A stretch of 64,000 nucleotides of DNA. It comes from a bacterium (lineage in GTDB: Bacteria; Patescibacteriota; Minisyncoccia; UBA6257; 2-01-FULL-56-20). Made by a program: the position numbers and the translations under genes. Below are positions 5,025 through 45,003 of this stretch, in pieces. The stretch spans positions 20,220 to 84,219 of the forward strand of contig JAJXZE010000002.1 of the NCBI GenBank assembly GCA_021780195.1, written 5' to 3'. Within the stretch, counting starts at the first letter, position 1, and every line of letters starts with the position of its first letter. A model generated the notes under the pieces. The model did not search any database and had not been told where the DNA came from. It saw nothing but the letters and a program-made list of their open reading frames with translations.

Positions 5025-5253
5025 CCTTCCCCGTGCCGCAGACCTTGCGCGCACGGGATTTTTTTATTTCAAATCTCCCTCCATCACCCCCCCGCGCCCG
5101 CTACGCAGAAAAATTCAAGGAACAGGGGCGCAGGAAGGCGCTTCTTCTTTCACGGACATTAAAGGGAGCCCATGGCCGAGAAAGAAGAAGGGCCTTCCTG
5201 CGCCTTGGGCTTTGTTTGCTCCGCGGGCGCGGGAGTATAATGCCAGTGTCATC

Positions 5254-31817: not shown

Positions 31818-32100
31818 AATCCGGCAATTGCCGGATTCTGAGATTTGCCGGATTGCCGGATTTAGAATTATTTAATGAAATAACCCGGTAAGGCCGATTT
31901 TCCTACTGCTAAACAAAATTGTTTAGCAAAATGTTTAGCGCTAAACACTATTTAAATGCGGCCGCTGATAAAATGATTTATTTCGATGTTTAGCGCTAAA
32001 CACATTTTAAATGTGTTTGCCGCTAAACACATTAAAAAAGACCATTTTAAATGATGATTTATTTCGATGTTTGCCGCTAAACACAATTTAAATGTCGGGA
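31818..32100. repeat. AT-rich divergent intergenic repeat array: 20-bp perfect palindrome AATCCGGCAATTGCCGGATT, three TTGCCGGATT copies, three copies of palindromic core TTTAGCGCTAAA (up to 18 bp), and an ~80-bp direct repeat
   Basis: Read directly: 31818-31837 palindrome; GTTTAGCGCTAAAC at ~31943, 31989 and (variant GTTTGCCGCTAAAC) 32069; ATTTATTTCGATGTTT at 31977 and 32057. Confidence 0.7.
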
Positions 32101-32522
32101 TAGAAGGCGAAAAGGTGGCAGGCCAATATCTTATTAAAAAAGGATGGGTTGTTCTATTTAAAAATATTAAGAGAAAGGGGGATGAAATTGACATAATTGC
32201 CAGGGACCCAAAAGGAACCCTGGTTTTTTGTGAGGTAAAAACTATGGCAATAAGGGCCTGTGCGACGGTGGATACAACATGTACGGATGGTCCAGCCGGC
32301 GAATCGCTGATGCCCGAAGACAATATGACTGCTTTTAAGCGGAGGAAGATGGCCAGGGGGTGTGAATTCTTCGCCAGGTCAAATCCCGACATGGTTGACC
32401 AGGAGAAGGGTTGGCGTATGGATCTTATTGCGGTCGATCTTCAGAAACTTGGCCCCGCAGGGCCTTGGAGCGCCGCGGCGCGGTATGCCGTGGCGGGCAT
32501 CCGGCACTATGAAAATATTTGA
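32067..32522 (+). CDS. yraN: YraN/UPF0102 family endonuclease
   Basis: GEKVAGQYLIKKGWVVLFKN...GDEIDIIARDPKGTLVFCEVKT matches the family core. The start codon lies inside the repeat array. Confidence 0.75.
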   Translation: MFAAKHNLNVGIEGEKVAGQYLIKKGWVVLFKNIKRKGDEIDIIARDPKGTLVFCEVKTMAIRACATVDTTCTDGPAGESLMPEDNMTAFKRRKMARGCEFFARSNPDMVDQEKGWRMDLIAVDLQKLGPAGPWSAAARYAVAGIRHYENI

Positions 32523-32656: not shown

Positions 32657-33991
32657 ATGCTGAACATAAAAGAAATGAGCAAGGCGCTGAAGCAGGTCGC
32701 CGAAGAAAAAGGGCTGGAGCCGAACAAGGTGCTCGAGGTGATCGAGACCTCGATCGCGGCCGCATACAAGCGCGAGTATGGAACGCGCGGCGAGGTGGTG
32801 AGGTGTAATCTTGATGCGGTAAGCGGTGAGCTGAAATTCTGGCAGATGAAGACGGTGGTCGACGAAACTACGGTGCGCTTCGTAACCGAGGAGGAGGCGG
32901 CCGCGGAGATGGAGAAGGAAAAAGAAAAGGAGGAGCGCGAGAGGAGAGGGGGGAGAGGGGGGAAGGGGGGCGAGATTTCCGCGAATGCGGGCGCGGGAAT
33001 GGGCGCGAGCGCGGGTGCGGGGACTAAAATGGAAGTCGTGGCGGAGGACGGCGAGGAGAAGCTTCCACGCTTTAATCCGGAGAGGCACATTACGCTCGAG
33101 GATGCGAAAAAGGAAAAGAAGGATGCAGTCCTCGGCGACGAGATTGCGTTCTCGCTCGAGATGCACGACGAGTTCGGACGCATTGCGGCACAGACCGCAA
33201 AACAAGTGATCCTTCAGAAGCTCCGCGAGTCGGAGCGCGATTCGATCCTCGCCGAGTGGCGCGACAAGGAAGGCCAGATCGTGAGCGGCGTTGTTCAGCG
33301 CTTTGAGCGGGGGAATGTGTTCATTGATCTTGGGAGGACGATCGGCGTGATGTTCGCAAACGAGTCCATCCCCGGGGAGCACTACCGCGCGGGCGAACGC
33401 CTGCGTTTCCTTGTGCTCGCCGTGCAGGAGGACACCCGCCTGCCGGGCATCATTCTTTCGCGCTCGCACCCGAAATTCGTGACGGAGCTCTTCCGCATGG
33501 AGGTGCCCGAGCTCGCGGAAGGCTCGATCGAGATCAAGGCGATTGCGCGCGAACCGGGCAACCGCACGAAGGTGGCGGTCGCGTCGGGCGCCGAGGGCGT
33601 CGACCCGGTGGGAGCGCTCGTCGGCCAGCGGGGGACGCGCGTCATGGCGGTGAATAACGAGCTTGGCAACGAGAAGATCGACATCGCGGAGTGGGCGGAG
33701 GATCCGGCGCAGTTCATCACGAACGCGCTTTCGCCCGCGAAGGCGGACAAGGTCGAGATTCTGCCGCGACGCGAAGCGCGTGCGTTCGTGCCCGAGGGCC
33801 AGCTTTCGCTTGCGATCGGCAAGGGCGGCCAGAACGTCCGGCTCGCCGCGAAGCTCACGGGATGGAAGATCGACGTGCGCTCGGGGTCGCATCCTGACGA
33901 GGCGCAGGAGGGAGGCACTGCGGGTATCATGGAATCGGACCAGATCCCGCCCCGGCCGGAGGATGACGAGAAAGAGGACATCGCCATGTAG
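32657..33991 (+). CDS. nusA: transcription termination/antitermination factor NusA with low-complexity insertion
   Basis: NusA N-terminal domain, S1 and KH domains. Insert [28 protein letters not shown]. Confidence 0.9.
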
Positions 33992-34049
33992 GGAGGGCAG
34001 GAACGGGCAACGCAACATAAAAAGTCATCACTATAAAATATTCATCATC

Positions 34050-36050
34050 ATGTCGGCCATCACTTTTTCATTCGTAAGCAGTGCGATCGCGATCCTTTTT
34101 GCGTTCGGGCTCGTGTGGAGGATCTCGAAGCGGCGCGGAGGGGACGCCAAGATGCAGGAGATCGCGCGCGCGATCCAGGTGGGTGCAAAGGCGTATCTGA
34201 ACCGGCAGTATAAGACAGTGGCGGTCGTCGCGGTCGTGATCGCGGCCCTGATCGGTCTCTTCCTTGGGACGGCGCCGATGGTCGGGTTCATTGTCGGCGC
34301 GCTGGCGTCGGCCTTGGCGGGATATATCGGCATGTATGTCGCGGTGCGCGCGAACGTGAAGACCGCGGAAGCGGCGAAGTCGGGCCTTGCGCCTGCGCTT
34401 TCGCTCGCGTTCGAAGGGGGAGCGGTGACGGGAATGCTCGTCGTCGGCCTCGCCCTGCTCGCAGTCACGGGATTCTATGCGACGACGGGCGACGTGAAGG
34501 CGCTTATCGGACTCGGCTTCGGCGCGAGTTTGATCTCGGTCTTCGCGCGCCTCGGCGGCGGCATCTTTACGAAGGGGGCGGACGTGGGCGCGGATCTCGT
34601 GGGCAAGCTTGAGGCGGGCATCCCTGAGGACGATCCGCGGAATCCCGCGGTCATCGCGGACAACGTGGGCGACAACGTGGGCGACGATGCCGGCATGGCG
34701 GCGGACCTTTTCGAGACGTATGCGGTGACGGCGATCGCGGCGATGCTCCTTGCGAACCTCGCGTTCCCCGGTGTCGCGGCGGCGCTCCATCTCCCGCTTG
34801 TCGTGGGCGGCGTCTCGATCCTCGCCTCGATTGTGGGAGTGTTCTTCGTGCGCCTCGGGAAGAAGCAGTCCATCATGGGCGCGCTCTATAAAGGACTCGC
34901 GGCGGCGGGCGTGCTTTCACTCGCGGGTTTCTGGTTCGTCGCCTCTCACTACGCGGCGACGGGCGGCCTGGGCGCAGGCATCACGGCGGGCGGCCTCTTT
35001 GCGCCAATGGCGGTCGGCGTCGCGGTGACCGCGCTCCTCGTGCTCATCACGGAGTACTACACTTCGAAGAAGTTCCGGCCGGTGCGCTCGATCGCGCAGT
35101 CGTCGGAGACGGGCCACGGCACGAACATCATCACGGGGCTTTCGGTCGGCATGGAAGCGACGGCGCTTCCGGTCGTCGTGATCATCGCGGGCATCCTCTC
35201 GGCGTATGCGACGACGGGCCTCTACGGCGTGGCGCTCGCGACGATGAGCATGCTTTCAATGGCGGGCATCGTGATCGCGATCGACGCATTCGGTCCGATC
35301 ACGGATAATGCGGGCGGCATCGCCGAGATGGCGGGCCTTCCGGACGACGTGCGCAAGGTGACGGATGCGCTCGACGCGGTGGGGAACACGACAAAGGCGG
35401 TGACGAAGGGCTACGCGATCGGTTCGGCGGGGCTCGCCGCGGTCGTGCTCTTCTCAGCGTACGTACAGGATCTTTCGCAGAAGCTCGGCCACGCGGTGCG
35501 CTTCGACCTCGCGGATCCGAAGATCATCGTGGGGCTTTTGATCGGCGGCATGATCCCGTATCTCTTTGCCTCGATCTCGATGCGCGCGGTGGGGAAGGCG
35601 GCGTCGGCGGTCGTCATGGAGGTGCGCCGCCAGTTCAGGGAGATTCCCGGCATCATGGCGGGGACGGCAAAGCCGGACTATGCGAAGAGCGTGGACATCG
35701 TGACCAAGGCGGCGATCAGGGAGATGGTCTTACCGGCGCTTTTGCCGGTCGTGCTTCCGGTCGCGGTCGCGTTCATCCTTGGGCCGCTGGCCCTCGGCGG
35801 CCTCCTCGTGGGTTCGATCGTGACGGGTATTTTCGTCGCAATCTCGATGACCTCCGGCGGCGCGGCATGGGACAACGCGAAGAAGTATATAGAGGAGGGG
35901 AACCTCGGCGGCAAGGGCTCCGAGGCGCATAAGGCGGCGGTCACGGGCGACACGGTGGGCGATCCGTACAAGGACACGGCGGGCCCGGCGATCAATCCGG
36001 TCATCAAGATCATCAACATTATCGCGCTCCTCCTGGTGCCCTTCCTGTAA
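34050..36050 (+). CDS. hppA: membrane-bound proton/sodium-translocating pyrophosphatase
   Basis: Multi-TM protein with DNVGDNVGD and [12 protein letters not shown] motifs. The called ORF 33663-36050 overlaps nusA; the start at 34050 (MSAITFSF) is preferred. Confidence 0.9.
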
Positions 36051-36158
36051 GGCGGGGACGGGCGGGCCGGACGGCGGGACGGGTTCCCCGGCGCGCCCCG
36101 CGCCGCGCTGGACGACGCGCAACGCGGAAAGTGTAGTAGAATATAAGAAAACAAAACC

Positions 36159-36755
36159 ATGGAATCAGAAGGCCAGTATCTCATCCCGACGGTCATCGAA
36201 AAGTCGCAGTTTGGCGAGCGGGCGTACGATATCTATTCGCGCCTGCTCAAGGAGCGCATCATTTTCCTCGGCGGCACGATCAATGACGGCGTGGCGAACA
36301 CGGTGATCGCCCAGCTCCTCTTCCTCGACCACGAGGATCAGAAGAAGGACATCAAACTCTATATCAATAGTCCCGGCGGTTCGGTCACCGCGGGCATGGC
36401 GATCTATGACACGATGCAGTACGTAAAGGCGGATGTCGTCACGATGTGCGTCGGCATGGCGGCGTCGATGGGAGCGTTCCTCCTTTCGTCGGGGAAGAAG
36501 GGGAAGCGATTTGCCCTTCCGAATTCGCAGATTCTTCTCCATCAGGTGATGGGCGGCGCGGAAGGGCAGGCAATCGAGATCGAGATCGCGGCGAAGCAGA
36601 TCGTGAAGACGAAACAGCGCCTGAACCAGTTGCTCTCGAAGCACACGGGCCAGCCGCTCGCGAAGATCGAGAAGGACACCGACCGCGACTTCTGGCTCTC
36701 CGCCGAGGAGGCGAAGGAGTACGGCGTGATTGACGACATCATCAAGAATTCGTAA
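36159..36755 (+). CDS. clpP: ATP-dependent Clp protease proteolytic subunit
   Basis: The catalytic Ser sits in GMAASMGAF. ClpP family pattern. Confidence 0.92.
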
Positions 36756-37939
36756 TGAAGGCCGACCAAAAAACGGTCGAGGAAATTCTGTCCCGCGGCG
36801 TCGAGGAGGTGGTGGACCGTGCGCACCTCCGCGCGGCGCTTGCGTCGGGGCGGAAGCTCCGCGTGAAGTTCGGCGTGGACCCGACGTCGCCGGATCTCCA
36901 TCTTGGCCACGCGGTAGTCCTGAGGAAGCTCCGCGAGTTTCAGGACGCGGGGCACCGCGCGGTGCTTGTGGTGGGCGATTTCACGGGGATGATCGGCGAC
37001 CCTTCCGGAAGGAGCGAGACGCGGAAGCCGCTCACGGCGGCGGAGGTCCGCGCGAACATGAAGAGCTATCTCGCGCAGGCAGGGAAAATCCTCGACATGA
37101 AGAAGGCCGAGGTCGCCCATAACAGTTCGTGGTTCGCCAAGGAGGGGATCACGGAATTCGTGCGCCTCGCTTCGGCGGGAACTTTCCAGGAAGTGCTCCA
37201 CCGCGCCGACTTCAAGAAGCGCATCGATGCGGGGCAGGGGATCACGTTCCTCGAACTACTCTACCCGCTCTTCCAGGGCTACGATTCGGTGAAGGTGAAG
37301 GCCGACGTGGAGCTCGGAGGCACCGACCAGACCTTCAACCTTCTTGCGGGACGCCGCGTCCAGCGCCATTTCGGCATGCCGGAACAGGATATCATGACCA
37401 TGCCGATCCTCGAGGGCCTCGACGGAGTGAAGAAGATGAGCAAGAGCATCGGGAACTATATCGGCCTCGCGGACAAACCCGCGGACATGTTCGGCAAGGT
37501 GATGTCGGTACCGGATGCGCTCGTCAAGAAATATTTCATGCTCTGCACCGATCTCCCGAGCGGAGAAATCGAGTCGCTCTGCCGCAGCGAGAAGCCGAAA
37601 GCGCTCAAGGAGCGGCTCGGCTTCGAGATCGTAATGCTCTACCGCGGCGAGAAAGCCGCGCGTGCCGCGCAGGAGAACTTTGAAAAAGTTTTTTCGCGAG
37701 GAGAAGTTCCCGAGGACATTCAGGAGGTCCGCGTAAAGGACGCGAAGGTCGCCGCGCTCGATCTTGCGGTGGAGCTCGGAGCGGCGAAGAGTCGCGGGGA
37801 GGCGCGACGGCTCATCGAGCAGGGAGGATTCGATGTCGACGGGAACGCGGTGAAAGATCCGCGCGCCATATTGGCTTTCCGCGGGGGCGAAGTAGTGAAG
37901 GCCGGAAAGAAGCGGTTTTTCAAGATAAAAATAAAGTAA
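36755..37939 (+). CDS. tyrS: tyrosyl-tRNA synthetase (class I, KMSKS form, with C-terminal S4 domain)
   Basis: HIGH motif (DLHLGH), KMSKS, and an S4-like C-terminus. Its length (394 aa) favours TyrRS over TrpRS. Confidence 0.75.
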   Translation: MKADQKTVEEILSRGVEEVVDRAHLRAALASGRKLRVKFGVDPTSPDLHLGHAVVLRKLREFQDAGHRAVLVVGDFTGMIGDPSGRSETRKPLTAAEVRANMKSYLAQAGKILDMKKAEVAHNSSWFAKEGITEFVRLASAGTFQEVLHRADFKKRIDAGQGITFLELLYPLFQGYDSVKVKADVELGGTDQTFNLLAGRRVQRHFGMPEQDIMTMPILEGLDGVKKMSKSIGNYIGLADKPADMFGKVMSVPDALVKKYFMLCTDLPSGEIESLCRSEKPKALKERLGFEIVMLYRGEKAARAAQENFEKVFSRGEVPEDIQEVRVKDAKVAALDLAVELGAAKSRGEARRLIEQGGFDVDGNAVKDPRAILAFRGGEVVKAGKKRFFKIKIK

Positions 37940-38021
37940 GGCGGGCGAGTGCCTCGGCCGCCCACAGGTTATCCCCAGGTTTTCCTTGCGCTACCGTGCG
38001 GGAAGATTATAGTTATATCAG

Positions 38022-38100
38022 ATCGCTGACAGCAGAATATTCTTCTTGTAGCCCTCCTAGGCGGGAGGGATTTTGCGGCCATTTGGCTGCTGTCAGCGAT
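38022..38100 (+). terminator. nested inverted repeats after tyrS: outer 14-bp arms ATCGCTGACAGCAG/CTGCTGTCAGCGAT enclosing hairpin CCCTCC-TAGGCG-GGAGGG followed by ATTTTG
   Basis: Read directly. The inner hairpin plus U-tract fits an intrinsic terminator. The outer repeat is unexplained. Confidence 0.45.
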
Positions 38101-38165
38101 TGCGCTCTTTTATCGGTTTGGGCTCTCCTTGGAGAGCCCTTTCTTTTTTATGGAATGTCCGCATA

Positions 38166-38897
38166 ATGATTTTCATGCCCCATTTTTTCGTGAAAAGCTT
38201 TGAGGAGGATCATGCGACGAAGACGCTCGTCGGGACGAAGAAGAAGACCTTTCAAACCCTCGATAATATCCTGATGAAGGGGATTCTGCGCCCGAATACG
38301 AAGAGCTTCGGCCAAAAGCGACGCCTTAGTACGACTGTTTTGAGCGGCCGCTATACGAAGACCTACCGGCCGCAAGGGCTGATTTTCAGGACGAAAGACC
38401 GGCCGGATTACGTGATCCCGTTTGATCTTGTTCTGCTTTCCGATGCGGGGAAAATCGTCGTACATTACTATCGCATCAAAGATAATCTGCACGTCTATTA
38501 CAACCACAAGCTCATCAATGGCTATCAGGGATTCATCTTTAAGAGTATCTCTCTGATGGAAAAGAAATTCGTCTCTCCGGAGGGAGCATGGAAAGCGGTC
38601 AATGCATTCCGCGTTGCACACGGCTATCCAGCGTTGCCTCCGTCGAAGCGCCGCCTCGCCGCCTATAACGAAGTCGTATTCCAGAAGCCGATAAAAGTCG
38701 TTCCCGTGGCGCTCTTCGGCTACCGCGCGGAAACGAGGCGGCTTGCCCGCAAATATGGACTCCGCTATTTCAGATCGGCGGGGGAGTTTTATAAACGGAT
38801 ACGCGGCGGCGCGTCCAAAGGACAGGAGGGGCGTTGTTTTTCTTTCGCTGGAGCGGGCAAGGGGAATCGAACCCCTGTCATCAGCTTGGAAAGCTGA
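38166..38897 (+). CDS. hypothetical protein in a low-GC segment; 3' end overlaps tRNA-Gly on the opposite strand
   Basis: Long ORF, but AT-rich with atypical composition. The overlap with the tRNA casts doubt on its C-terminus. Confidence 0.35.
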   Translation: MIFMPHFFVKSFEEDHATKTLVGTKKKTFQTLDNILMKGILRPNTKSFGQKRRLSTTVLSGRYTKTYRPQGLIFRTKDRPDYVIPFDLVLLSDAGKIVVHYYRIKDNLHVYYNHKLINGYQGFIFKSISLMEKKFVSPEGAWKAVNAFRVAHGYPALPPSKRRLAAYNEVVFQKPIKVVPVALFGYRAETRRLARKYGLRYFRSAGEFYKRIRGGASKGQEGRCFSFAGAGKGNRTPVISLES

Positions 38898-38922
38898 GGT
38901 AATGCCATTATACGATGCCCGC
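38849..38922 (-). tRNA. tRNA-Gly (anticodon UCC), CCA encoded
   Basis: Folds as a cloverleaf with anticodon loop TTTCCAA. Nearly identical to the canonical bacterial tRNA-Gly(UCC). Confidence 0.9.
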
Positions 38923-39033
38923 GGAAGCAGAGCGCGGGCGCTCCCGCACCCTTTCGCCGCCGTCCGACGTACTTAAGAGTATCATCCAATCTTGCGTTTT
39001 TCAACCGGTTTTGCTACAACTTATGATATTGAA

Positions 39034-39627
39034 ATGATCTCATTTTCCCGCCGCACCAAGATCGCAAGTTCATTCGTGGGAATCGTGATCGTGGGATATG
39101 CCGCCGTCCATTTCGTGCAGGGAGGAGGCGTGCCGCGCGACTTTACGGATGCGCGCGAGCAGGGAGCCATCATCGGTCAGACCATCGTTAATCTTTCGAA
39201 CAGTTCAACGGCAAGCCTCGAGCAGGTGAATACCATGGACAACCGGGGGGACTATGCGGACGCGCTCACCCTCACGACCCAGCTCGTGAGCCAGAGTCAG
39301 GACATCCGCGACCAGGCGGTGGCCCTCTCCGCGCAGGTGGAGCAGATGACCAGGGCGCTTTCGGGCATCAGCGACCTCTCGGCGCGCCAAGCGGCGCTCG
39401 AATCGATCTCGAACCGACTCGCGCTCATCAATCAGCTCGTGAACTACAGCGCCGACCTCTCGAAGCTTCTCGATACCCTGCGCGCCCGCTTCTCCGGGAA
39501 GGGAGGCAGTGCGGCGCAGGTCACCGCGCTTGTGAATCAGGTGAACACCGACGTGAACGCGATCAACAACTTCAACGCCCAAGCCGGGCAGGCCATGGAT
39601 CGCTTCGACGCGATCATGGGGAAGTAG
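39034..39627 (+). CDS. membrane-anchored coiled-coil hypothetical protein
   Basis: N-terminal TM (IASSFVGIVIVGYAAV) and a Q/A/L-rich heptad-like region. Confidence 0.5.
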   Translation: MISFSRRTKIASSFVGIVIVGYAAVHFVQGGGVPRDFTDAREQGAIIGQTIVNLSNSSTASLEQVNTMDNRGDYADALTLTTQLVSQSQDIRDQAVALSAQVEQMTRALSGISDLSARQAALESISNRLALINQLVNYSADLSKLLDTLRARFSGKGGSAAQVTALVNQVNTDVNAINNFNAQAGQAMDRFDAIMGK

Positions 39628-39679
39628 CATTGTCGTTTACCTCCGGCGTTTTTTGCGGTATAAAGGCAGTACCCCGCGA

Positions 39680-39754
39680 GGGCATGTAGCTCAATGGCAG
39701 AGCAGACGTCTTATACACGTCCGGTTCCAGGTTCGAGTCCTGGCATGCCCACCA
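39680..39754 (+). tRNA. tRNA with anticodon UAU (tRNA-Ile2-like, would decode AUA), CCA encoded
   Basis: Acceptor GGGCATG/CATGCCC, D arm GCTC/GAGC, anticodon stem GACGT/ACGTC with loop CTTATAC, and T arm CCAGG-TTCGAGT-CCTGG. Confidence 0.75.
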
Positions 39755-39755
39755 G

Positions 39756-40283
39756 ATGATCATTGTATTCACCGGCAACGGAAAGGGAAAGACGACCGCA
39801 TCGCTCGGGCAGATGGTGAGGGTGCTCGGGCGCGGTAAGGCGGCGCTCATGATCCAGTTCATCAAGGGGCCGTGGCTCTCCGGCGAAGACGAATTTGCGG
39901 CCAAGGTCAATATTCCGCCGGAGAAGTTCGCGGTGCGGAAGATGGGCCTCGGTTTCGTGGGGATCCTCGGCGACGCGCTCCCGATTGAGAAGCATAAGGA
40001 AGCGGCGCGCCATGCGCTCGACGAGTTCATCGAGGAGAAGCGGTCGGGGAGATGGCATCTCATGATCCTCGACGAGGTGAATGTGGCGGTGTCCCTGGGA
40101 CTTCTCACGCCCGCGGAGGTGATCGCCGCCGTGGACGATTTTCCCGAAGAAAAGATACTCATCATGAGCGGCCGCGGCGCACCGCAGGAGTTCATCGACC
40201 GCGCGGATCTCGCGACCGAGATGCGTGAAATAAAGCACCCGTTCGCGAAGGGTGAACGGGCGAAGTTCACGGTGGAGTTCTAG
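39756..40283 (+). CDS. CobA/CobO/BtuR-family corrinoid adenosyltransferase-like P-loop protein
   Basis: MIIVFTGNGKGKTTASLG matches the family N-terminus. Begins 2 nt after the tRNA. Confidence 0.65.
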   Translation: MIIVFTGNGKGKTTASLGQMVRVLGRGKAALMIQFIKGPWLSGEDEFAAKVNIPPEKFAVRKMGLGFVGILGDALPIEKHKEAARHALDEFIEEKRSGRWHLMILDEVNVAVSLGLLTPAEVIAAVDDFPEEKILIMSGRGAPQEFIDRADLATEMREIKHPFAKGERAKFTVEF

Positions 40284-40356
40284 GGGCGGCTCCGGGGGGC
40301 GGTTCCTGTGGCCGGCCGCGGGTGGCCACAGGCCGGACCCTGAAACGTGCGCGGGC

Positions 40357-42186
40357 CTAGCCCGCGACGGGCTTGATCTTGTACGGCAAGAGAAGGCCGT
40401 AGAATTCATCTCCCTCGAGCGTTTCTTTTTCCATGAGCGTATCCGCCACCTTCTTGAGTGCGGGTTTGTGCGTCTTCAATATTCTTTCCGCGGTTTCGTA
40501 CGCGTGCGCGATGAACTTACGGACCTGTTCGTCGATCTCCGCCGCCATTTTTTCTGAATAATTTTTTTCAGTCGTGATCTCGCGGCCAAGGAACACCATG
40601 TCTTCCGTTTTCCCGAAGGTTGTGGGGCCGAGCTCGCTCATGCCGTATTTCATGACGAGGCGCCGCGCCAAACTCGACGCCTCTTTGAGGTCGTTCGAGG
40701 CGCCGGTCGAAACGTCGCCGAAGGTGAGCTTCTCCGAGGTGTAGCCGCCGAGCATCATGGCGAGGTCGGCGAGGAACTGGTTCCTGGTCTTCAGGTGCTG
40801 GTCTTCCGTGGGGAGTTTCATGGTGTAGCCCCCGGCGAACCCTCGGCTGATGATCGAAACCTTCTGGACGGGGTCGGCATCCTTCACGGCCGCCGCGACG
40901 AGCGCGTGACCGCCTTCGTGGTAGGCGGTGATCTCCTTTTCCTTTTGGGAAATGACGCGGCTCTTGCGCTCGGGGCCGAGGATCACCTTTTCGGCGGCCT
41001 CAAAGAGTTCCTCCTGACCGATGAGCTTCTTGCCGCGCCGCGCGGTGATGATCGCCCCCTCGTTCATGAGGTTCGCGAGGTCGGCGCCGGAGAAACCGGG
41101 CGTTCGCACGGCGACCTTCCGAAGATCGATGTTTTTTGCGAGGATCTTGCCTTCGGCGTGGATCTTGAGGATCGCCTCGCGGTCATTCAGATCCGGGAGG
41201 TCGAGGATCACGCGGCGGTCGAAGCGGCCCGGGCGGAGCAACGCGGGATCCAGAATGTCGGGACGGTTCGTGGCGGCGAGGACGATCACGCGCGTGTCGC
41301 GGTCGAAGCCGTCCATCTCGACGAGAATCTGGTTCAGCGTCTGCTCGCGTTCGTCGTTGCCGCCGCCGAGGCCCGCGCCCCGCTGGCGGCCGACCGCGTC
41401 GATCTCGTCGATGAAGAGGATCGCGGGCGCCGCGCGCTTCGCGGTCATAAAGGCGTCCCTGGTGCGCGAAGCGCCGACGCCGACGAACATCTCCACGAAT
41501 TCCGATGCGGAAATATAGAAGAAGGGTACCCCGCTCTCGCCGGCGACCGCGCGGGCGACGAGTGTCTTTCCGGTGCCCGGGGGGCCCATGAGCAGGATGC
41601 CGCGCGGGATGCGCGCGCCCAAGTCAAGGAACTTTTTAGGATTTTTTAAGAAATCGACGACCTCGATGAGTTCTTCCTTTGCCTCCTTGAGGCCGGCCAC
41701 GTCCTTGAACATCACCTTATCCTTGAAGGTCGAGAGCTTGAGGTTGGAGCGGCCGAAGCTGAAGGCCTGGTTTGCTCCGGTCTTCGCCTGGCGGAACATG
41801 AGCCAAAAGAAGATGCCGATCGCAATCAGCGGGAGGAGTGTGGGGATGAGAAGATTTGCCCAGAATTCCCAGCCGGACTGATCCTGCACGGCGAGGTTCA
41901 CGGTCTGCATGGCTTTGGGATCAACGCCGAGGCTTTTCAGGGTTTCCGCGATGCCGGTTTCGGCTTCTTTTTTGGAAACCGCGGTCGAACCGTCCGTGAG
42001 CGTGATGGCGAGATCGTTGCCGTTCACGGTGACCGATTTTACCTGGCCGGCATTGATCTTATCCACGAGCTGGTTCAGGCTGAGCGTCGTCGGGGCGGGC
42101 GGCGGGGCGACGAACGCGGAAAAAACGAGCGAGATGATAACGAGCGTCAGTATTCCCCAGAGTATATTTTTTACGAGGTTGGACAT
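40357..42186 (-). CDS. ftsH: ATP-dependent zinc metalloprotease FtsH
   Basis: N-terminal TMs, AAA domain ([17 protein letters not shown]), and HEGGHA zinc motif. Confidence 0.95.
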
Positions 42187-42217
42187 AGCGCAATTATAGA
42201 GGCACGGCCGAAGCGGG

Positions 42218-42841
42218 TCAAACGAGCGGGCGCTCTTCCGGTTCCACGAAGCGCTCGACGACTTTCCCGATCAGGAAGTCTACGGCGACGAATACGGCGA
42301 GGACGACGAGGAAGATGAGTTCGACATCCCTGAGGGTCGCGGCGGCGAGAAGCGGCGAGAGGCCGGAGACGAGCGTGAAGGCAAGGCCGAGGAAAAGGGG
42401 GATCCAGGCGAGGATGGAGAGCACCGAGGTGCGGAAGAATTTTTTGAAAGGCGTGCGCGTCCAGCCGATGAGGAACACCACCGGGAAGCTTGCGCCGTAC
42501 ATGAACTTCGAAAAAAAGAGCATCTTCCTGCCGTTGTGGAGGAGAATGCGTTCCATCCGTTCATGCCCAGGGATACGGCTCTTGATCCATCCGCCGAGGC
42601 GCGTGTTGCGGAGCTTGTGACCGAGCGAGTACCACAGCGTGTCGCCCGTGATATTTGCGAGGAACATGGCGAGCACGAGAAGCGGCACGCCCCACGCGCC
42701 GAAGTAGCCGTGGGCGACGATCCAGAAACCCGTAAAGGCCGCAATATTGCCGAGGAAAATCGTGCCGACGTAGATGATGAAAGTGGCCAAAACAAGGTTT
42801 TGGCCGGCGATGGCGCCCAGGGCGGCGATGAATGTACTCAC
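42218..42841 (-). CDS. DedA/SNARE-associated family membrane protein
   Basis: Multi-TM protein with a DedA-like GDTLWYSLG motif. Confidence 0.6.
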   Translation of the reverse strand: MSTFIAALGAIAGQNLVLATFIIYVGTIFLGNIAAFTGFWIVAHGYFGAWGVPLLVLAMFLANITGDTLWYSLGHKLRNTRLGGWIKSRIPGHERMERILLHNGRKMLFFSKFMYGASFPVVFLIGWTRTPFKKFFRTSVLSILAWIPLFLGLAFTLVSGLSPLLAAATLRDVELIFLVVLAVFVAVDFLIGKVVERFVEPEERPLV

Positions 42842-42946
42842 GTGATTCCATTATACCAAATGCGGCCGCGCCGCCCGCGCGCGCCTTGAAAAATGCCCGT
42901 TCCCGTGCCATAATGGGCACGTTCCGTCCGCTCAAGGCCGGTTCAT

Positions 42947-43020
42947 GGTGCCTCTAGCTTAATGGTAAAGCTCCGCTCTGTGGCAGCGGCAATACGGGTC
43001 CGATTCCCGTGAGGCACCCA
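42947..43020 (+). tRNA. tRNA-His (anticodon GUG) with encoded G-1
   Basis: Eight-bp acceptor including G-1:C73. Anticodon loop CTGTGGC. The T-loop TCCGATT is slightly unusual. Confidence 0.7.
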
Positions 43021-43023
43021 GCG

Positions 43024-43093
43024 CAAACAAAGACATACTCCCTTACGGACATGGGCTCCCTTTAATGTCCGCAAGGGAGTATGTCTTTGTTTG
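43024..43093. repeat. 29-bp near-perfect inverted repeat (hairpin, 12-nt loop) immediately 3' of tRNA-His
   Basis: CAAACAAAGACATACTCCCTTACGGACAT / ATGTCCGCAAGGGAGTATGTCTTTGTTTG, with one mismatch. Confidence 0.7.
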
Positions 43094-43108
43094 CCGCGCT
43101 GGGCTGTT

Positions 43109-43128
43109 TTGTGAGAGAAGCGGACGAG
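43109..43128. repeat. 20-bp direct repeat GAAGCGGACGAGGGGAGGGG, left copy (right copy at 44303-44322), flanking the Fic gene
   Basis: The two copies are identical and lie on either side of 43278-44207. Confidence 0.6.
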
Positions 43129-43245
43129 GGGAGGGGTCGGGAGGGGCGGGCCGCCCCTCCCGTGTGGGAGGGCTACGCTGCTCCGGGCGGCGCGGCAGTG
43201 CGGGACCGAGGGTCCCGCAGGCGCAGGGCGGCTGAGCGCCCGAGC

Positions 43246-43268
43246 AGTCCGACTCCCCGTGAGGCACC
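43246..43268 (+). repeat. partial duplicate of the tRNA-His 3' end (GTCCGACTCCCCGTGAGGCACCCA), candidate att-site remnant
   Basis: Compare the tRNA 3' end GTCCGATTCCCGTGAGGCACCCA at 42998-43020. Confidence 0.5.
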
Positions 43269-43277
43269 CAGGGAGGG

Positions 43278-44207
43278 TTATTTTCCCTTCCGCTCCACGA
43301 TTCGGTATCCTTCCAAGATCGCATCGCACATAAAATTCTCGAGTAGCGTAAGGTCGTCTTTCGTTTGCGCTTTGTTGAGATAAGCGATATACCGCCGCCG
43401 ATCCTCTTGCAGGATGACGAGCGGCGGAAGATCTTCCTTGAGCGCCATCGCATGCCCAAGCAGACGGCCAATGCGGCCGTTGCCGTCGGCGAACGGATGG
43501 ATCATTTCGAACCGAGCATGGATGGCGGCAATGTGCCGGACGACATCCTTCGTTTTTTCGCGCATATCCTCAACGAGCGTCTTCATCAGATCGGGAACCT
43601 TCGCATAATTTGCCGTGGGGACATCCGAGCCCGCTATTCGCACACCATGGTTGCGATACCCTCCGGCGTAGGGGTGGACCGCATTCAGAAGGATGCCGTG
43701 TAGCTTCACGATCAACGATTCGTTGATCGGCTCCCCTTCTCCGATATAACCGAAAAGATATTCCAAGGTAGCCTGATGGTTCTTCACCTCGAGCTGTTCG
43801 ATGATGCTCTTGTTCGGCAACGCCGCGTTCTGGAACATGATCGCCGCCGTTTCTCCTTCGGACAGCGTGCTCCCTTCGATGCGGTTCGAGTGGTACGTAA
43901 GCGACAGATAGAATTGATCGCGGATATCGGGATTATCTACAATGCGTCGCAGTACGTGCGGGCGCTGTTTTTGTTTTACGCGGATGATCCCCTTTTTCGC
44001 CGCGAGTTCGCTTTCCGGCACCTGCTTCTCGCCCGAATACTCTTTATATAATTCGTCGATTTTTTGAAGTGCCCCGAGGCGCGGCGACGCCCTTTCGTTT
44101 ATCCACCGGTTGAGCGCCGCAAAGGTAACTCCAAGGCGGTTGGCCAGCTGGGTCTGCGTCAATCCCGACAGCTTCAAGATAAGTTGTAATTTCTGTCTTG
44201 AGGTCAT
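43278..44207 (-). CDS. HTH (XRE-like) + Fic domain protein
   Basis: Fic motif HPFADGNGRIGR. The N-terminal helix-turn-helix is QTQLANRLGVTFAALNRWINE. Confidence 0.85.
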   Translation of the reverse strand: MTSRQKLQLILKLSGLTQTQLANRLGVTFAALNRWINERASPRLGALQKIDELYKEYSGEKQVPESELAAKKGIIRVKQKQRPHVLRRIVDNPDIRDQFYLSLTYHSNRIEGSTLSEGETAAIMFQNAALPNKSIIEQLEVKNHQATLEYLFGYIGEGEPINESLIVKLHGILLNAVHPYAGGYRNHGVRIAGSDVPTANYAKVPDLMKTLVEDMREKTKDVVRHIAAIHARFEMIHPFADGNGRIGRLLGHAMALKEDLPPLVILQEDRRRYIAYLNKAQTKDDLTLLENFMCDAILEGYRIVERKGK

Positions 44208-44302
44208 AGCCCCATGGTAATAAACTATATATAGTTTGTCAAAATGCGGCCTTTATATATAGTTATATACCTCGTTTTATGAGGTATATCCTGACTTTCT
44301 TA

Positions 44303-44322
44303 TTGTCTCGGGGAAGCGGACG
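44303..44322. repeat. 20-bp direct repeat GAAGCGGACGAGGGGAGGGG, right copy
   Basis: Identical to 43109-43128. Confidence 0.6.
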
Positions 44323-44371
44323 AGGGGAGGGGCGCAGAGCTTTTGAGCGCTCTTTGCACGACCGCTACTAG

Positions 44372-44944
44372 CTAGTACGTTGTCGGAGAGAAAACGGTGC
44401 TGGTCGAGGTGATGCAGGATTCGAAGAGCTGGGTCGACGATGCGCTGTCGGGGGCGGATAATATTCCCCTGAGCGTTGCCTGCTTCAGGGACTCCATGGT
44501 CGAAGTGCCGTCGGGCTTCACCCCGTATTTATCGCTTTCAGCGCTAATGAATGCGAGCGTGCTCGAAACCTCTTCACTTTTTACATTTGCCTGGAGCGTG
44601 GAGTCGAGTGGATTTCCCGATAGTTCATTGAGCGCATCGAGGACGGTTTGATTCCCCTGCGTTTCCTGCTGTTTTACGAATGTCTGGCGAGCGTCATTTG
44701 CGGAGGTTACTTCTACGGTTTCAACTCCATCCTGCGTACGGACGGCGGCGGCAATCTTTTGAATTACGGCGATATCGGTTCCGGACGAAAAGCTGACCGT
44801 GATGGGGCTCGCGAGGCCCGCGATCTTGTTATAGCACTGATGCCGAAGATCTGCGGGGCGATATTGATGAGCGATCAAAAAAACGCCAACGCCGGCAACG
44901 CAGATTACTGCGGCAATCGCCGCAAATATCAGAACCACTTTCAT
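44372..44944 (-). CDS. membrane-anchored protein resembling only the N-terminal TM + extracellular domain of FtsX
   Basis: TM VVLIFAAIAAVICVAGVGVFLI followed by an FtsX-ECD-like region including SGNPLDSTLQANVKS. The C-terminal permease TMs are absent. Confidence 0.4.
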   Translation of the reverse strand: MKVVLIFAAIAAVICVAGVGVFLIAHQYRPADLRHQCYNKIAGLASPITVSFSSGTDIAVIQKIAAAVRTQDGVETVEVTSANDARQTFVKQQETQGNQTVLDALNELSGNPLDSTLQANVKSEEVSSTLAFISAESDKYGVKPDGTSTMESLKQATLRGILSAPDSASSTQLFESCITSTSTVFSPTTY

Positions 44945-45003
44945 GCTTCCAGTATAACAGAAGTGCGGCACGGAAAGCTAAAAATCCTGGTATACTTAAT
45001 CAA

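What the first reader, a model, noticed from the sequence alone, without database searches (positions are those of the whole stretch)
42947..44322. tRNA-His-associated islet: long hairpin, duplicated tRNA 3' end, 20-bp direct repeats flanking an HTH-Fic gene with palindromic operator-like promoter
Directly 3' of tRNA-His lies a 29-bp inverted repeat (43024-43093). About 225 bp further on is a near copy of the tRNA 3' end (43246-43268), as expected for an attL/attR pair at a tRNA integration site. The identical 20-mer GAAGCGGACGAGGGGAGGGG occurs at 43109 and 44303 and brackets an HTH-Fic gene (43278-44207), a toxin or AMPylase-type family often found on mobile DNA. The Fic upstream region (44210-44300) is AT-rich with palindromes AAACTATATATAGTTT and CTTTATATATAGTTATATA, which could be autoregulatory operators. 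No integrase remains, so this looks like a decayed or minimal integrative element.
Basis: seen in the sequence. Interest (0 to 1): 0.55.

Follow-up and report, generated by a model that had tools for sequence, protein, structure and literature searches.

The report
Mobile HTH-Fic gene cassette beside tRNA-His
A roughly 1-kb self-regulating HTH-Fic gene sits next to tRNA-His in this Patescibacteria (CPR) genome as an inserted cassette without an integrase, and the same cassette recurs across related genomes flanked by direct repeats or inside tRNA-His-anchored cassette arrays.

Summary
The mobile-DNA reading is partly right.

- **Empty sites:** four relatives with the same DedA-tRNA-His synteny have neither the hairpin nor Fic after the tRNA.
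- **Unit:** homology to other Fic loci covers only the ORF plus about 95 bp of promoter (43278-44301).
- **tRNA copies:** the two tRNA 3'-end copies enclose only 225 bp of non-coding DNA. Fic lies outside them.
- **Repeats:** the 20-mers (a 20+19-nt block) bracket the displaced tRNA fragment plus Fic.
- **Relatives:** Fic is one cassette in arrays of 0.5-1.9-kb cassettes. These are separated by 60-110-nt same-strand repeats that look like decayed tRNA-His 3' halves, and two arrays end at tRNA-His.
- **Other lineages:** the Fic unit is flanked by lineage-specific 20-145-nt direct repeats in 9 of 38 loci, against 1 of 106 control genes.
- **Recombinase:** no intact integrase was found in any locus held.
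- **Protein:** Fic is a class II, self-inhibited AMPylase fused to an XRE HTH. Its promoter carries a palindromic operator that is exact in 32 of 44 homologous loci.
- **Hairpin:** it has one twin in the window with the same apex; its function is unknown.

How the cassette moves is not resolved.

The parts
42886..42914 (+). Promoter-like site for tRNA-His (TTGAAA-17-CATAAT, with TG before the second hexamer)
   Evidence: Consensus scan. Inference only.
42948..43019 (+). tRNA-His (GTG). G-1 is encoded at 42947 and CCA is not fully encoded.
   Evidence: ARAGORN; Rfam tRNA 60.4 bits. It is 100% identical over 80 nt to the tRNA of relative L002.
42998..43021 (+). Repeat 'a': the T-loop-to-3'-end block of the tRNA plus 3 flanking nt. 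This is the att-type identity block.
   Evidence: (D8), and direct reading.
43017..43103 (-). Long hairpin with 30-bp arms at 43023-52 and 43065-94, plus a 6-bp extension that uses the last tRNA bases. Its 26-nt apex is identical (25 of 26) to a second hairpin at 5127-5204.
   Evidence: (I1, I2, I6). The single mismatch is a G-U pair on the - strand. Both family members fold better on the strand whose loop reads UUAAAGGGAGCCC.
43117..43239 (+). Direct repeat D: the 20-mer (43117-36), an 83-nt G+C-rich insert with two perfect hairpins (43138-62 and 43203-19), then a 20-nt block (43220-39).
   Evidence: (D3, D7, I11).
43247..43271 (+). Repeat a': the displaced or duplicated tRNA-His 3' fragment, lying 6 nt from the Fic stop codon. 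It occupies the same position as the array repeat that follows Fic in L009, L025 and L029.
43278..44207 (-). HTH(XRE)-Fic gene, 309 aa. It carries the inhibitory motif SNRIEG and the active-site motif HPFADGNGRIGR, which makes it class II Fic.
   Evidence: Pfam; PDB (FICD, CdFic, BtFic); PADLOC; homologues at 56-88% identity; codon positions 1+2 are 91% identical versus 67% at position 3.
44208..44275 (-). Fic promoter and operators: -10 TACCAT at 44214-19, palindrome O2 AAACTATATATAGTTT at 44222-37, -35 TTGACA at 44237-42, O1 AACTATATATA at 44254-64. The -10 ends 6 nt before the ATG, which suggests a leaderless mRNA.
   Evidence: O2 is exact in 32 of 44 non-redundant loci. Two sites 27-28 nt apart occur in 35 of 44. 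The palindrome changes symmetrically in L023 and L068.
44290..44301 (-). Remnant (AAGAAAGTCAGG) of the right arm of the array repeat. This is the outer limit of nucleotide homology with other Fic cassettes.
   Evidence: The blastn block 43278-44301 versus L005-L008 and the aligned upstream sequences.
44313..44350 (+). Direct repeat D': the 20-mer immediately followed by the 20-nt block. It lies in the 3' UTR of the 199-aa gene at 44372-44971 on the - strand.

Best explanation
The locus is a tRNA-His recombination hotspot holding one copy of a small mobile gene cassette without an integrase. The cassette is about 1.0-1.2 kb and consists of its own promoter and operators plus an HTH-Fic gene.

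**How the cassette arrived (inferred).** It entered by a single-crossover (Campbell-type) recombination of a circularised DNA that carried Fic plus short pieces of anchor sequence. In this lineage the anchors were the tRNA-His 3' end (a/a') and a 20+19-nt block (D/D').
- The present order is tRNA-a-hairpin-D-a'-Fic-D'.
- The simplest reading is that a circle [a'-Fic-D] was inserted at D into an ancestral tRNA-hairpin-D-gene arrangement.
- On that reading, a' is the scar of an earlier residence directly at a tRNA-His.
- The recombinase is either supplied in trans or is host RecA. It is not encoded in the unit.

**What the gene does (inferred from family knowledge).**
- The N-terminal XRE HTH dimer binds the two conserved AACTATATATA-type operators that overlap the -35/-10 region and represses its own leaderless transcript.
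- The C-terminal class II Fic domain is an AMP-transferase. It is kept inactive by its own inhibitory glutamate (SNRIEG) until it is triggered.
- The unit may therefore act as a self-contained addiction or defence module, which would explain why it persists.

**The hairpin.** It is a separate element from a two-member family. It probably forms in RNA on the Fic strand and may act as a 3' insulator or processing site.
For: **Shown**
- Four syntenic relatives lack everything after base 43020.
- Homology with Fic loci elsewhere is limited to 43278-44301.
- In relatives, homology units run exactly from repeat to repeat. The same cassettes occur in different orders: L011 4980-5675 lies after Fic, while its match L030 24-719 lies before Fic; L013 5214-5844 matches L033 6125-6758.
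- 83 of 84 repeat copies are on the Fic strand. The arrays in L005 and L015 end at tRNA-His with its 3' end facing the array.
- L005, L006 and L007 come from three samples and are identical for 127 nt up to GGGGTGCCT. L005 then continues into the tRNA body, while L006 and L007 continue into a repeat arm.
- Read in tRNA orientation, the repeat looks like a decayed T-arm, then AGGCACCC, then the native flank GGCGATTTTT.
- Direct repeats flank the Fic unit in 9 of 38 non-redundant loci outside the arrays, against 1 of 106 control genes.
- In L062 the repeat is the 5' coding part of a gene that, read by eye, looks like a uracil-DNA glycosylase. The two copies differ at 9 synonymous and 3 non-synonymous sites. 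They are therefore two alleles that both evolved as coding sequence, not an in-place duplication.
- Between the window and L005, identity at four-fold-type sites is 64% for Fic and 48% for FtsH. Amino-acid identity is 87% for Fic and 80% for FtsH. Fic GC3 is 65.8%, against 81% for FtsH and DedA.
- Operator conservation and symmetric change are shown; Fic motifs and PDB relatives.

**Inferred**
- A circular intermediate, the order of events, repression by the HTH, AMPylation, and an addiction or defence role.
Against: - No close relative of this genome is available. The nearest DedA homologue is 64% identical, so no true empty-site allele and no circular junction was seen.
- The array repeat itself is absent from the 64-kb window.
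- The alternative order of events fits equally well: a non-coding circle [hairpin-D-a] inserted at the tRNA of a tRNA-Fic-D' chromosome.
- Some Fic loci have no flanking repeats and no tRNA nearby (L078).
- A 9-nt shared core is too short for RecA, so a dedicated recombinase may exist. Only a degraded large serine recombinase was found, about 4.4 kb from the tRNA-His of L079.
- The recombinase screen used query sequences recalled from memory and single-sequence phmmer, so its sensitivity is limited.
Confidence: 0.55

Rival explanations
1. This is a classical tRNA-integrated genomic islet that once carried a tyrosine integrase and has decayed to Fic plus att scars.
For: An intact tRNA plus a displaced copy running from the T-loop to the 3' end is the textbook signature of tDNA islands (principle stated in PMC4383910). 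The segment is absent from syntenic relatives.
Against: The a/a' pair encloses only 225 bp of non-coding DNA, and Fic lies outside it. The unit shared with dozens of other lineages is only promoter plus Fic. No intact integrase or integrase remnant lies next to Fic in any of about 40 lineages.
Confidence: 0.15
2. A dedicated site-specific recombinase encoded elsewhere in the genome or on a phage or plasmid moves cassettes in and out of tRNA-His. The arrays would then form an integron-like or tycheposon-like system, and the window would be its minimal, decayed form.
For: - The breakpoint falls exactly at the 8-9-nt core GGGTGCCT.
- The repeats are conserved over 60-110 nt, with 11-nt inverted ends AAACAGGTTCT/AGAACCTGTTT.
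- The repeats have a single orientation.
- Cassettes are shuffled between arrays.
- The cargo is rich in toxin-antitoxin pairs: MNT/HepT and YafQ/RelB.
- Successive integration at island tRNAs is documented for tycheposons (bioRxiv 10.1101/2020.12.28.424599).
Against: - No intact recombinase was found within 6-10 kb of any array.
- The repeats have no conserved hairpin, so they are not attC sites.
- Outside this clade the flanking repeats are unrelated, lineage-specific sequences. One site-specific enzyme cannot explain those.
- There are no matches in viral contigs.
Confidence: 0.3
3. The flanking direct repeats are target-site duplications made in place by a cut-and-fill transposition-like insertion of the Fic unit.
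For: Repeats abut the unit's ends in many lineages: repeat 1 ends just before operator 1 and repeat 2 starts 0-55 nt after the stop codon.
Against: - Repeat lengths run from 20 to 145 nt, far beyond known target duplications.
- The copies are only 80-97% identical. In L062 the differences are biased to synonymous sites, which points to two separate alleles.
- The Fic unit has no terminal inverted repeats and no transposase.
Confidence: 0.08
4. Nothing here is mobile. Fic is an old neighbour of tRNA-His, and the repeats come from local duplication or slippage, or are regulatory and terminator elements.
For: tRNA-His lies within 0.3-4.4 kb of Fic in four lineages of the clade with 75% or higher Fic identity, which could reflect inherited synteny. 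The G-rich D region looks prone to slippage.
Against: - Four relatives with conserved left-hand synteny lack Fic at this site.
- The order and orientation of Fic relative to the tRNA differ between lineages.
- Fic is less diverged than FtsH at synonymous sites.
- Direct repeats are enriched around Fic relative to control genes.
- Samples differ at the L005/L007 junction.
Confidence: 0.07

Closest known systems
Genomic islands integrated in tRNA genes (Islander-type tDNA islands; T-loop sublocation class of att sites)
   Same: There is an intact tRNA plus a displaced direct-repeat copy that starts in the T-loop and runs 3 nt past the 3' end. The insert is absent from relatives, and the site is a hotspot with a different neighbour in each relative.
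   Different: There is no integrase. The tRNA-fragment pair encloses only 225 bp of non-coding DNA. The cargo gene is bracketed by a second, unrelated repeat pair that interleaves with the first.
Tycheposon-built tRNA-anchored islands of Prochlorococcus (bioRxiv 10.1101/2020.12.28.424599)
   Same: In the relatives, successive cassettes pile up next to one tRNA, with partial tRNA-like repeats scattered through the island. Populations are heterogeneous at the tRNA junction.
   Different: Tycheposons are multi-kb elements with their own tyrosine recombinase and replication genes. Here the units are 0.5-1.9 kb with no mobility genes, and the repeats are 60-110 nt with most of their length not matching the tRNA.
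Chromosomal integron cassette arrays
   Same: This applies to the relatives only. Cassettes are many and small, separated by one repeat family in one orientation and shuffled between arrays. The cargo is rich in toxin-antitoxin pairs and small proteins of unknown function. Fic carries its own promoter, as integron toxin-antitoxin cassettes do.
   Different: There is no IntI next to the array. The repeats are conserved in sequence but have no attC-like hairpin. The anchor is a tRNA gene, not attI. Genes lie in both orientations. None of these repeats occurs in the window.
Class II Fic AMPylases (FICD/HYPE, Clostridioides difficile CdFic 4X2E, Bacteroides BtFic 3CUC) and the HTH + Fic 'mobile mystery protein A/B' gene pair (TIGR02612/TIGR02613)
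   Same: The canonical HPFx[DE]GNGRxxR motif is present, with an inhibitory (S/T)xxxE(G/N) helix N-terminal to the core. The best PDB matches are FICD and CdFic. An XRE HTH is associated with a Fic domain on mobile DNA.
   Different: HTH and Fic are fused in one 309-aa protein. The score against mob_myst_B is 40.5 bits, against a cut-off of 124.4. The target and the activating signal are unknown.
Minimal mobile elements of naturally competent bacteria (cassettes exchanged by homologous recombination in conserved flanks; recalled from my own knowledge, not checked in a paper)
   Same: Whole-gene cassettes without mobility genes occupy a fixed site between conserved sequences and differ between strains.
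   Different: Here the cassette also turns up at unrelated sites, each with its own duplicated anchor sequence. Competence and RecA dependence were not tested.

Membership tests
tRNA-gene integrative island (tyrosine-integrase type) | Intact tRNA plus a displaced 3' fragment as a direct repeat | tested here: met
   42998-43021 versus 43247-43271, with a shared exact 16-mer.
tRNA-gene integrative island (tyrosine-integrase type) | The island cargo lies between the two tRNA-derived repeats | tested here: not met
   Only 43022-43246, which is non-coding, lies between them. Fic is outside.
tRNA-gene integrative island (tyrosine-integrase type) | An integrase gene or remnant at one end | tested here: not met
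   There is no integrase Pfam hit in the genes within about 10 kb on the Fic side or about 6 kb on the other side. phmmer with XerD, IntI1 and resolvase queries found nothing in the window or the 77 loci. The queries were recalled from memory.
tRNA-gene integrative island (tyrosine-integrase type) | Absent from related genomes (an empty site) | tested here: met
   L002, L004, L075 and L076 keep DedA-tRNA-His, but homology stops at 43020. These relatives are distant: DedA identity is 53-64%.
Fic/Fido class II AMP-transferase | Fic domain above the Pfam threshold, with the HPFx[DE]GNGRxxR motif | tested here: met
   PF02661 scores 71.3 bits against a cut-off of 24. HPFADGNGRIGR is read directly from the translation.
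Fic/Fido class II AMP-transferase | Inhibitory helix motif (S/T)xxxE(G/N) N-terminal to the Fic core in the same chain | tested here: met
   SNRIEG in ...LTYHSNRIEGSTLS... aligns with YHTVAIEGNTLS of the FICD homologue 5JJ6.
Fic/Fido class II AMP-transferase | AMPylation of a target protein | not testable with these tools
   This needs biochemistry.
XRE-family autorepressor | HTH_3 domain plus a palindromic operator overlapping its own promoter | tested here: met
   HTH_3 E-value 2.5e-9. The 16-bp palindrome lies between -35 and -10 and is exact in 32 of 44 loci. It changes symmetrically in L023 and L068. Binding itself was not tested.
Integron (mobile or chromosomal) | IntI tyrosine recombinase adjacent to attI | tested here: not met
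   None is found in the window or next to any array.
Integron (mobile or chromosomal) | attC sites: imperfect hairpins conserved in structure rather than sequence | tested here: not met
   The repeats of relatives give -7.6 kcal/mol in a consensus fold with no compensatory pairs. No such repeat occurs in the window.
Mobile mystery protein B (NCBIfam TIGR02613) | Score above the curated cut-off | tested here: not met
   40.5 bits against a cut-off of 124.4.
Intrinsic (Rho-independent) terminator, tested for the long hairpin | A G+C-rich stem followed by a run of T | tested here: not met
   The terminator scan does not call it. The T-rich stretch lies inside the stem.
MITE or REP-type interspersed repeat, tested for the long hairpin | Many copies with conserved termini | tested here: not met
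   There are only two copies in 64 kb. The apex is conserved and the outer stems are unrelated.

The most novel reading that the evidence does not exclude
Patescibacteria may carry a cassette-exchange system that I could not find described. In it, gene units of 0.5-1.9 kb without integrases (HTH-Fic, toxin-antitoxin pairs, small enzymes) are inserted and shuffled at tRNA-His through repeats derived from the tRNA 3' half. The HTH-Fic unit would additionally hop to new sites by carrying short host 'anchor' fragments. The window would be a minimal, partly decayed instance. If so, this would be a main route of gene flux in these tiny genomes. It would be comparable in function to integrons or tycheposons but would differ from them in mechanism.
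Probability: 0.35. Interest if true: 0.8.

Novelty: new variant of a known kind. Interest (0 to 1): 0.6.

Why it matters
CPR/Patescibacteria have genomes of about 1 Mb, few recognisable mobile elements and no cultured genetics. How they exchange genes is therefore largely unknown.

- **A tractable marker.** This locus and its relatives point to a concrete marker of gene flux. It is a highly conserved 1-kb HTH-Fic unit with a signature operator, flanked by duplicated anchor sequence and gathered at tRNA-His into cassette arrays.
- **A testable prediction.** Circular junctions and empty-site alleles should be detectable in metagenomic reads.
- **A search handle.** The repeat profile and the operator can be used to map hotspots and to look for the missing recombinase.
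- **The protein itself.** It is a compact natural fusion of an autorepressor with a self-inhibited AMPylase, and it matches models of candidate phage-defence systems (PDC-S04, SoFic). That makes it a candidate for an addiction or defence function in organisms that live on other cells.

Tried and rejected
- **Rfam on the region.** Only the tRNA is credible. The mir-1 and MIR1446 hits (below their gathering scores) simply reflect a long hairpin, and the snR46 hit is noise.
- **Array-repeat profile against the window.** It found nothing beyond the 8-nt tRNA core, so the window is not itself an array.
- **Viral contigs.** There is no Fic relative, no array repeat and no hairpin apex.
- **Exact-protein look-ups.** Look-ups of Fic and of the neighbouring 188-aa product, meant to find an alternative allele or empty site, returned only the same contig.
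- **End of Logan contig L001 inside the tRNA.** I considered this as evidence of polymorphism and rejected it. The identical tRNA in another organism (L002) is enough to break a de Bruijn assembly.
- **Integron membership.** Rejected.
- **Hairpin as an intrinsic terminator.** The scan does not call it.
- **Possible pairing between the hairpin arm and the 3' end of the Fic coding region (43347-43371).** This is the best match in the window but only marginally so, score 24 against 21 for the next best. I dropped it.
- **Recombinase hunt.** The only hit is a large serine recombinase with a deleted catalytic domain, next to tRNA-Val in L079. It cannot be linked to the arrays.
- **Literature searches.** Searches on integrons, gene cassettes or tRNA islands in Patescibacteria found nothing describing this. 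This was a limited search, not proof of absence.
Full report
**1. What is in the sequence**

tRNA-His(GTG) lies at 42948-43019 on the + strand, behind a promoter-like site at 42886-42914.

A long hairpin follows immediately. Its arms are 43023-43052 and 43065-43094, 30 nt each, with one mismatch and a 12-nt loop. Six more pairs (43017-22 with 43098-103) draw in the last bases of the tRNA. Fold z-scores are about -11.

The exact 20-mer GAAGCGGACGAGGGGAGGGG is at 43117 and 44313. Only 0.01 chance matches are expected. The repeat is longer than reported. A second 20-nt block at 80% identity follows directly at 44331-44350. In the first copy it sits at 43220-43239, separated from the 20-mer by an 83-nt G+C-rich insert with two perfect hairpins.

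The tRNA 3'-end copy is real. 42998-43021 matches 43247-43271, with an exact shared 16-mer, one substitution and one extra base. The block starts in the T-loop and runs 3 nt past the discriminator base. CCA is not part of it, so it is a copy of genomic DNA and not of mature tRNA.

The Fic ORF (43278-44207, - strand, 309 aa) has HTH_3 and Fic domains.

The order on the + strand is tRNA - a - hairpin - D - a' - Fic(-) - promoter - D' - 199-aa gene(-). The two repeat pairs interleave. a/a' enclose only 225 bp of non-coding DNA. D/D' enclose a' plus Fic.

**2. Host and relatives**

Names attached to homologues place the window in Patescibacteria/CPR, close to Paceibacterota.

Four relatives keep DedA-tRNA-His. 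They were found through the neighbouring DedA protein, at 53-64% identity. Two of them, L002 and L004, also keep tRNA-Gly, tRNA-Ile(TAT), CobA and FtsH. Each has a different gene directly after the tRNA:
- an ABC transporter in L002;
- PP2C in L004;
- an unknown gene in L075;
- a gene that reads as DHFR in L076.

None has the hairpin, the tRNA copy or Fic. The tRNA of L002 is identical over 80 nt, and similarity stops at 43020. The 3' side of tRNA-His is therefore a variable junction in this family.

GC3 also drops across the tRNA, from 77-83% in the genes from 36.1 to 42.8 kb to 56-75% in the 20 kb to its right.

**3. The unit that recurs is promoter plus Fic**

Fic homologues are very numerous, with 5481 hits. 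They are unusually conserved: 56-88% identity across Paceibacterota, Giovannoni-, Kaiser-, Uhr- and Peribacteria and MAGs labelled Saccharibacteria. By contrast, DedA has no relative above 64% identity.

Nucleotide homology between the window and the loci with 87% Fic identity (L005-L008) covers exactly 43278-44301. That is the ORF plus about 95 bp upstream.

Between the window and L005:

| Measure | Fic | FtsH |
|---|---|---|
| Amino-acid identity | 87% | 80% |
| Identity at four-fold-type sites | 64% | 48% |
| GC3 in the window | 65.8% | 81% |

Fic is therefore younger in this genome pair than the genomes themselves. It is also under purifying selection, with codon positions 1+2 at 91% identity and position 3 at 67%.

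**4. Arrays at tRNA-His in relatives**

In the clade with Fic identity of about 74% or more, a repeat occurs every 0.5-1.9 kb. Its consensus is ...AAAATCGCC-GGGTGCCT-YAGTnnACGAYGTCAGAACCTGTTTGAGG. Of 84 copies, 83 are on the Fic strand.

Longer forms reach about 110 nt. Shorter ones have 11-nt inverted ends, AAACAGGTTCT...AGAACCTGTTT. Read in tRNA orientation, the repeat looks like a decayed tRNA-His T-arm, then the acceptor end AGGCACCC, then the native 3' flank GGCGATTTTT.

The arrays in L005 and L015 end at tRNA-His, with its 3' end facing the array.

Homology between arrays runs exactly from repeat to repeat, and the same cassettes sit in different orders:
- the Fic+100-aa cassette is shared by L005, L013, L014, L015, L030 and L033;
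- the PEMT cassette lies after Fic in L011 and before Fic in L030;
- the cassette at L013 5214-5844 matches L033 6125-6758, the YafQ/RelB cassette.

The cargo includes MNT/HepT, YafQ/RelB, PEMT, Mn-catalase, SnoaL, Bax1-I and many small proteins of unknown function.

Three samples give contigs that are identical for 127 nt up to GGGGTGCCT. L005 then continues into the tRNA body. L006 and L007 continue into a repeat arm and other DNA. This is a clean recombination breakpoint inside the tRNA acceptor stem.

The repeats have no conserved secondary structure, and no integrase sits beside any array. These are therefore not integrons. They resemble islands built by successive integration at a tRNA, as described for tycheposons. 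The difference is that the units here carry no mobility genes.

The window's a' sits 6 nt after the Fic stop codon. In L009, L025 and L029 the repeat sits in the same place. A remnant of the repeat's right arm, AAGAAAGTCAGG at 44290-44301, survives upstream of the promoter. The full repeat is not present anywhere in the window.

**5. Direct repeats around Fic are a family trait**

Outside that clade the Fic unit is again bracketed by direct repeats, but of unrelated, lineage-specific sequence:

| Locus | Repeat length | Note |
|---|---|---|
| L023 | 143 nt | next to tRNA-Ser |
| L062 | 74 nt | 5' coding part of the downstream gene |
| L044 | 73 nt | |
| L059 | 58 nt | |
| L053 | 50 nt | |
| L019 | 33 nt | weaker, z = 4.6 |
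| L043 | 27 nt | |
| L045 | 26 nt | |
| window | 20+19 nt | |

Repeat 1 ends just before operator 1. Repeat 2 begins 0-55 nt after the stop codon in most of these loci, further out in the window and L043. The spacing is 1059-1295 nt.

Scored against shuffles at z of 7 or more, 9 of 38 non-redundant Fic loci show such repeats. A tenth, L013, owes its score to the array repeat. Of 108 control genes in the same loci, 3 reach that threshold, and 2 of those are array cassettes.

In L062 the repeat is the 5' coding part of the downstream gene, which reads as a family-4 uracil-DNA glycosylase (my reading of the translation, not a database hit). The two copies differ at 9 synonymous and 3 non-synonymous positions. 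They are therefore two alleles that each evolved as coding sequence. They are not an in-place duplication that decayed.

This fits insertion of DNA that carried Fic together with a piece of a donor's flanking gene. The insertion would be a single crossover of a circular molecule at that anchor.

The window fits the same scheme. A circle [a'-Fic-D] recombining at D with an ancestral tRNA-a-hairpin-D-gene chromosome gives exactly the present order. The flank AGCG after the intact tRNA matches the flank in relatives (CCCAGCGAT in L075 and L040). This suggests that the hairpin side is the native side.

The reverse order of events gives the same structure. In that case a non-coding circle [hairpin-D-a] would have inserted at the tRNA. 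The data do not decide between the two.

**6. The gene and its control**

The protein has the canonical active-site motif HPFADGNGRIGR. It also has the inhibitory motif SNRIEG, N-terminal to the Fic core. That motif aligns with the inhibitory helix of FICD. The best solved relatives are FICD, CdFic and BtFic, all class II Fic AMPylases.

It matches PADLOC models PDC-S04 and SoFic. It falls below the threshold for 'mobile mystery protein B'.

The promoter is TTGACA - 17 nt - TACCAT, and the -10 ends 6 nt before the ATG. This spacing is kept across the family and suggests a leaderless mRNA (inference).

The 16-bp palindrome AAACTATATATAGTTT fills the spacer between the two hexamers. It is exact in 32 of 44 non-redundant upstream regions. 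A second AACTATAT site lies 27-28 nt upstream in 35 of 44. In the most divergent members the palindrome changes symmetrically, to AACTCTATAGAGTT in L023 and AAACGTTATAAAGTTT in L068.

This is what is expected of an operator read by the protein's own dimeric XRE domain. Autorepression is therefore well supported by comparison, although binding itself is untested.

**7. The hairpin**

Only two hairpins of this size exist in the 64 kb. The other is at 5127-5204, and the two share a 26-nt apex, CGGACAT-UAAAGGGAGCCC-AUGKCCG. Their outer stems are unrelated, and they lie in opposite orientations.

Each folds better on the strand that presents the loop UUAAAGGGAGCCC: -63.3 versus -54.0 kcal/mol for one and -66.5 versus -65.1 for the other. 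The mismatches become G-U pairs on that strand. This points to an RNA-level element. For the hairpin at 43023-43094, that strand is the Fic strand.

It is not called as a terminator. It has no match in the other loci or in viral contigs. Its function is open. It could be an insulator or processing site, or a small palindromic mobile element.

**8. Verdict**

It is not a decayed integrase island bounded by the tRNA copies.

The best reading is a roughly 1-kb HTH-Fic cassette without an integrase, of a kind that recurs across Patescibacteria. In relatives such cassettes are gathered into tRNA-His-anchored arrays. The recombination machinery and the order of events at this locus remain unresolved.

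Noticed in passing
L005 7896-13390; L009 6811-13940; L011 4892-12600; L015 2656-7441; L030 3-4625; L033 1416-7815: Related Patescibacteria carry arrays of 0.5-1.9-kb gene cassettes separated by a 60-110-nt repeat. The repeat contains the core GGGTGCCT, is always on one strand and resembles a decayed tRNA-His 3' half. Two arrays end at tRNA-His. Cassettes are shuffled between arrays and no integrase lies next to them.
   Followed up: partly
L023 5798-5940 and 6927-7070; L062 3297-3370 and 4413-4486; L044 3603-3675 and 4678-4758; L059 185-242 and 1244-1301; L053 2822-2871 and 4010-4063: In other lineages the promoter-plus-Fic unit is flanked by lineage-specific imperfect direct repeats of 26-145 nt. 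In L062 the repeat is the duplicated 5' end of the downstream gene, and the two copies differ mostly at synonymous sites. Such repeats are far more common around Fic than around control genes.
   Followed up: partly
window 5127-5204: This is a second long hairpin, with 33-nt arms, lying between a canonical terminator and the promoter of the next gene (by eye, YebC-like). It shares the 26-nt apex of the 43023-43094 hairpin but has unrelated stems and the opposite orientation.
   Followed up: partly
window 43278-63418 versus 33663-42841: GC3 of ORFs falls from about 77-83% left of tRNA-His to about 56-75% across the whole 20 kb to its right. None of the right-hand genes has a counterpart in the syntenic relatives. 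The variable region may therefore be much larger than the Fic islet.
   Followed up: partly
window 31915-32105: There are three to four tandem or interspersed copies of a unit holding the palindrome TGTTTAGCGCTAAACA, spaced 27-81 nt apart. They overlap a low-GC3 ORF (31952-32392). They look like an operator or iteron cluster.
   Followed up: no
window 39680-39754 (also in L002 and L004): A tRNA-Ile with anticodon TAT (UAU), uncommon in bacteria, is conserved in the relatives next to CobA and FtsH.
   Followed up: no
window 43125-43150: Four closely spaced G-tracts (GGGGAGGGGTCGGGAGGGGCGGG) follow the first 20-mer. They could form a G-quadruplex on the + strand. This tract is the start of the 83-nt insert that the second repeat copy lacks.
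   Followed up: no
L079 15765-16808 (same genome as L015): A large serine recombinase with an internally deleted catalytic domain has Recombinase and Zn_ribbon_recom hits, but only residues 2-50 of the Resolvase domain. It lies next to tRNA-Val and an ImmA/IrrE-HTH pair, about 4.4 kb from the tRNA-His array.
   Followed up: partly
L013 5858-7394 and L014 1-1539: One MAG (MFD04780.bin.2.65) holds two copies of the Fic+100-aa cassette that are 98.8% identical, each close to a contig end. This suggests a recent duplication or a multi-copy state.
   Followed up: no
L015 11457-11576: A strong Rfam match to LOOT RNA (86.8 bits) lies a few kb from the tRNA-His array.
   Followed up: no
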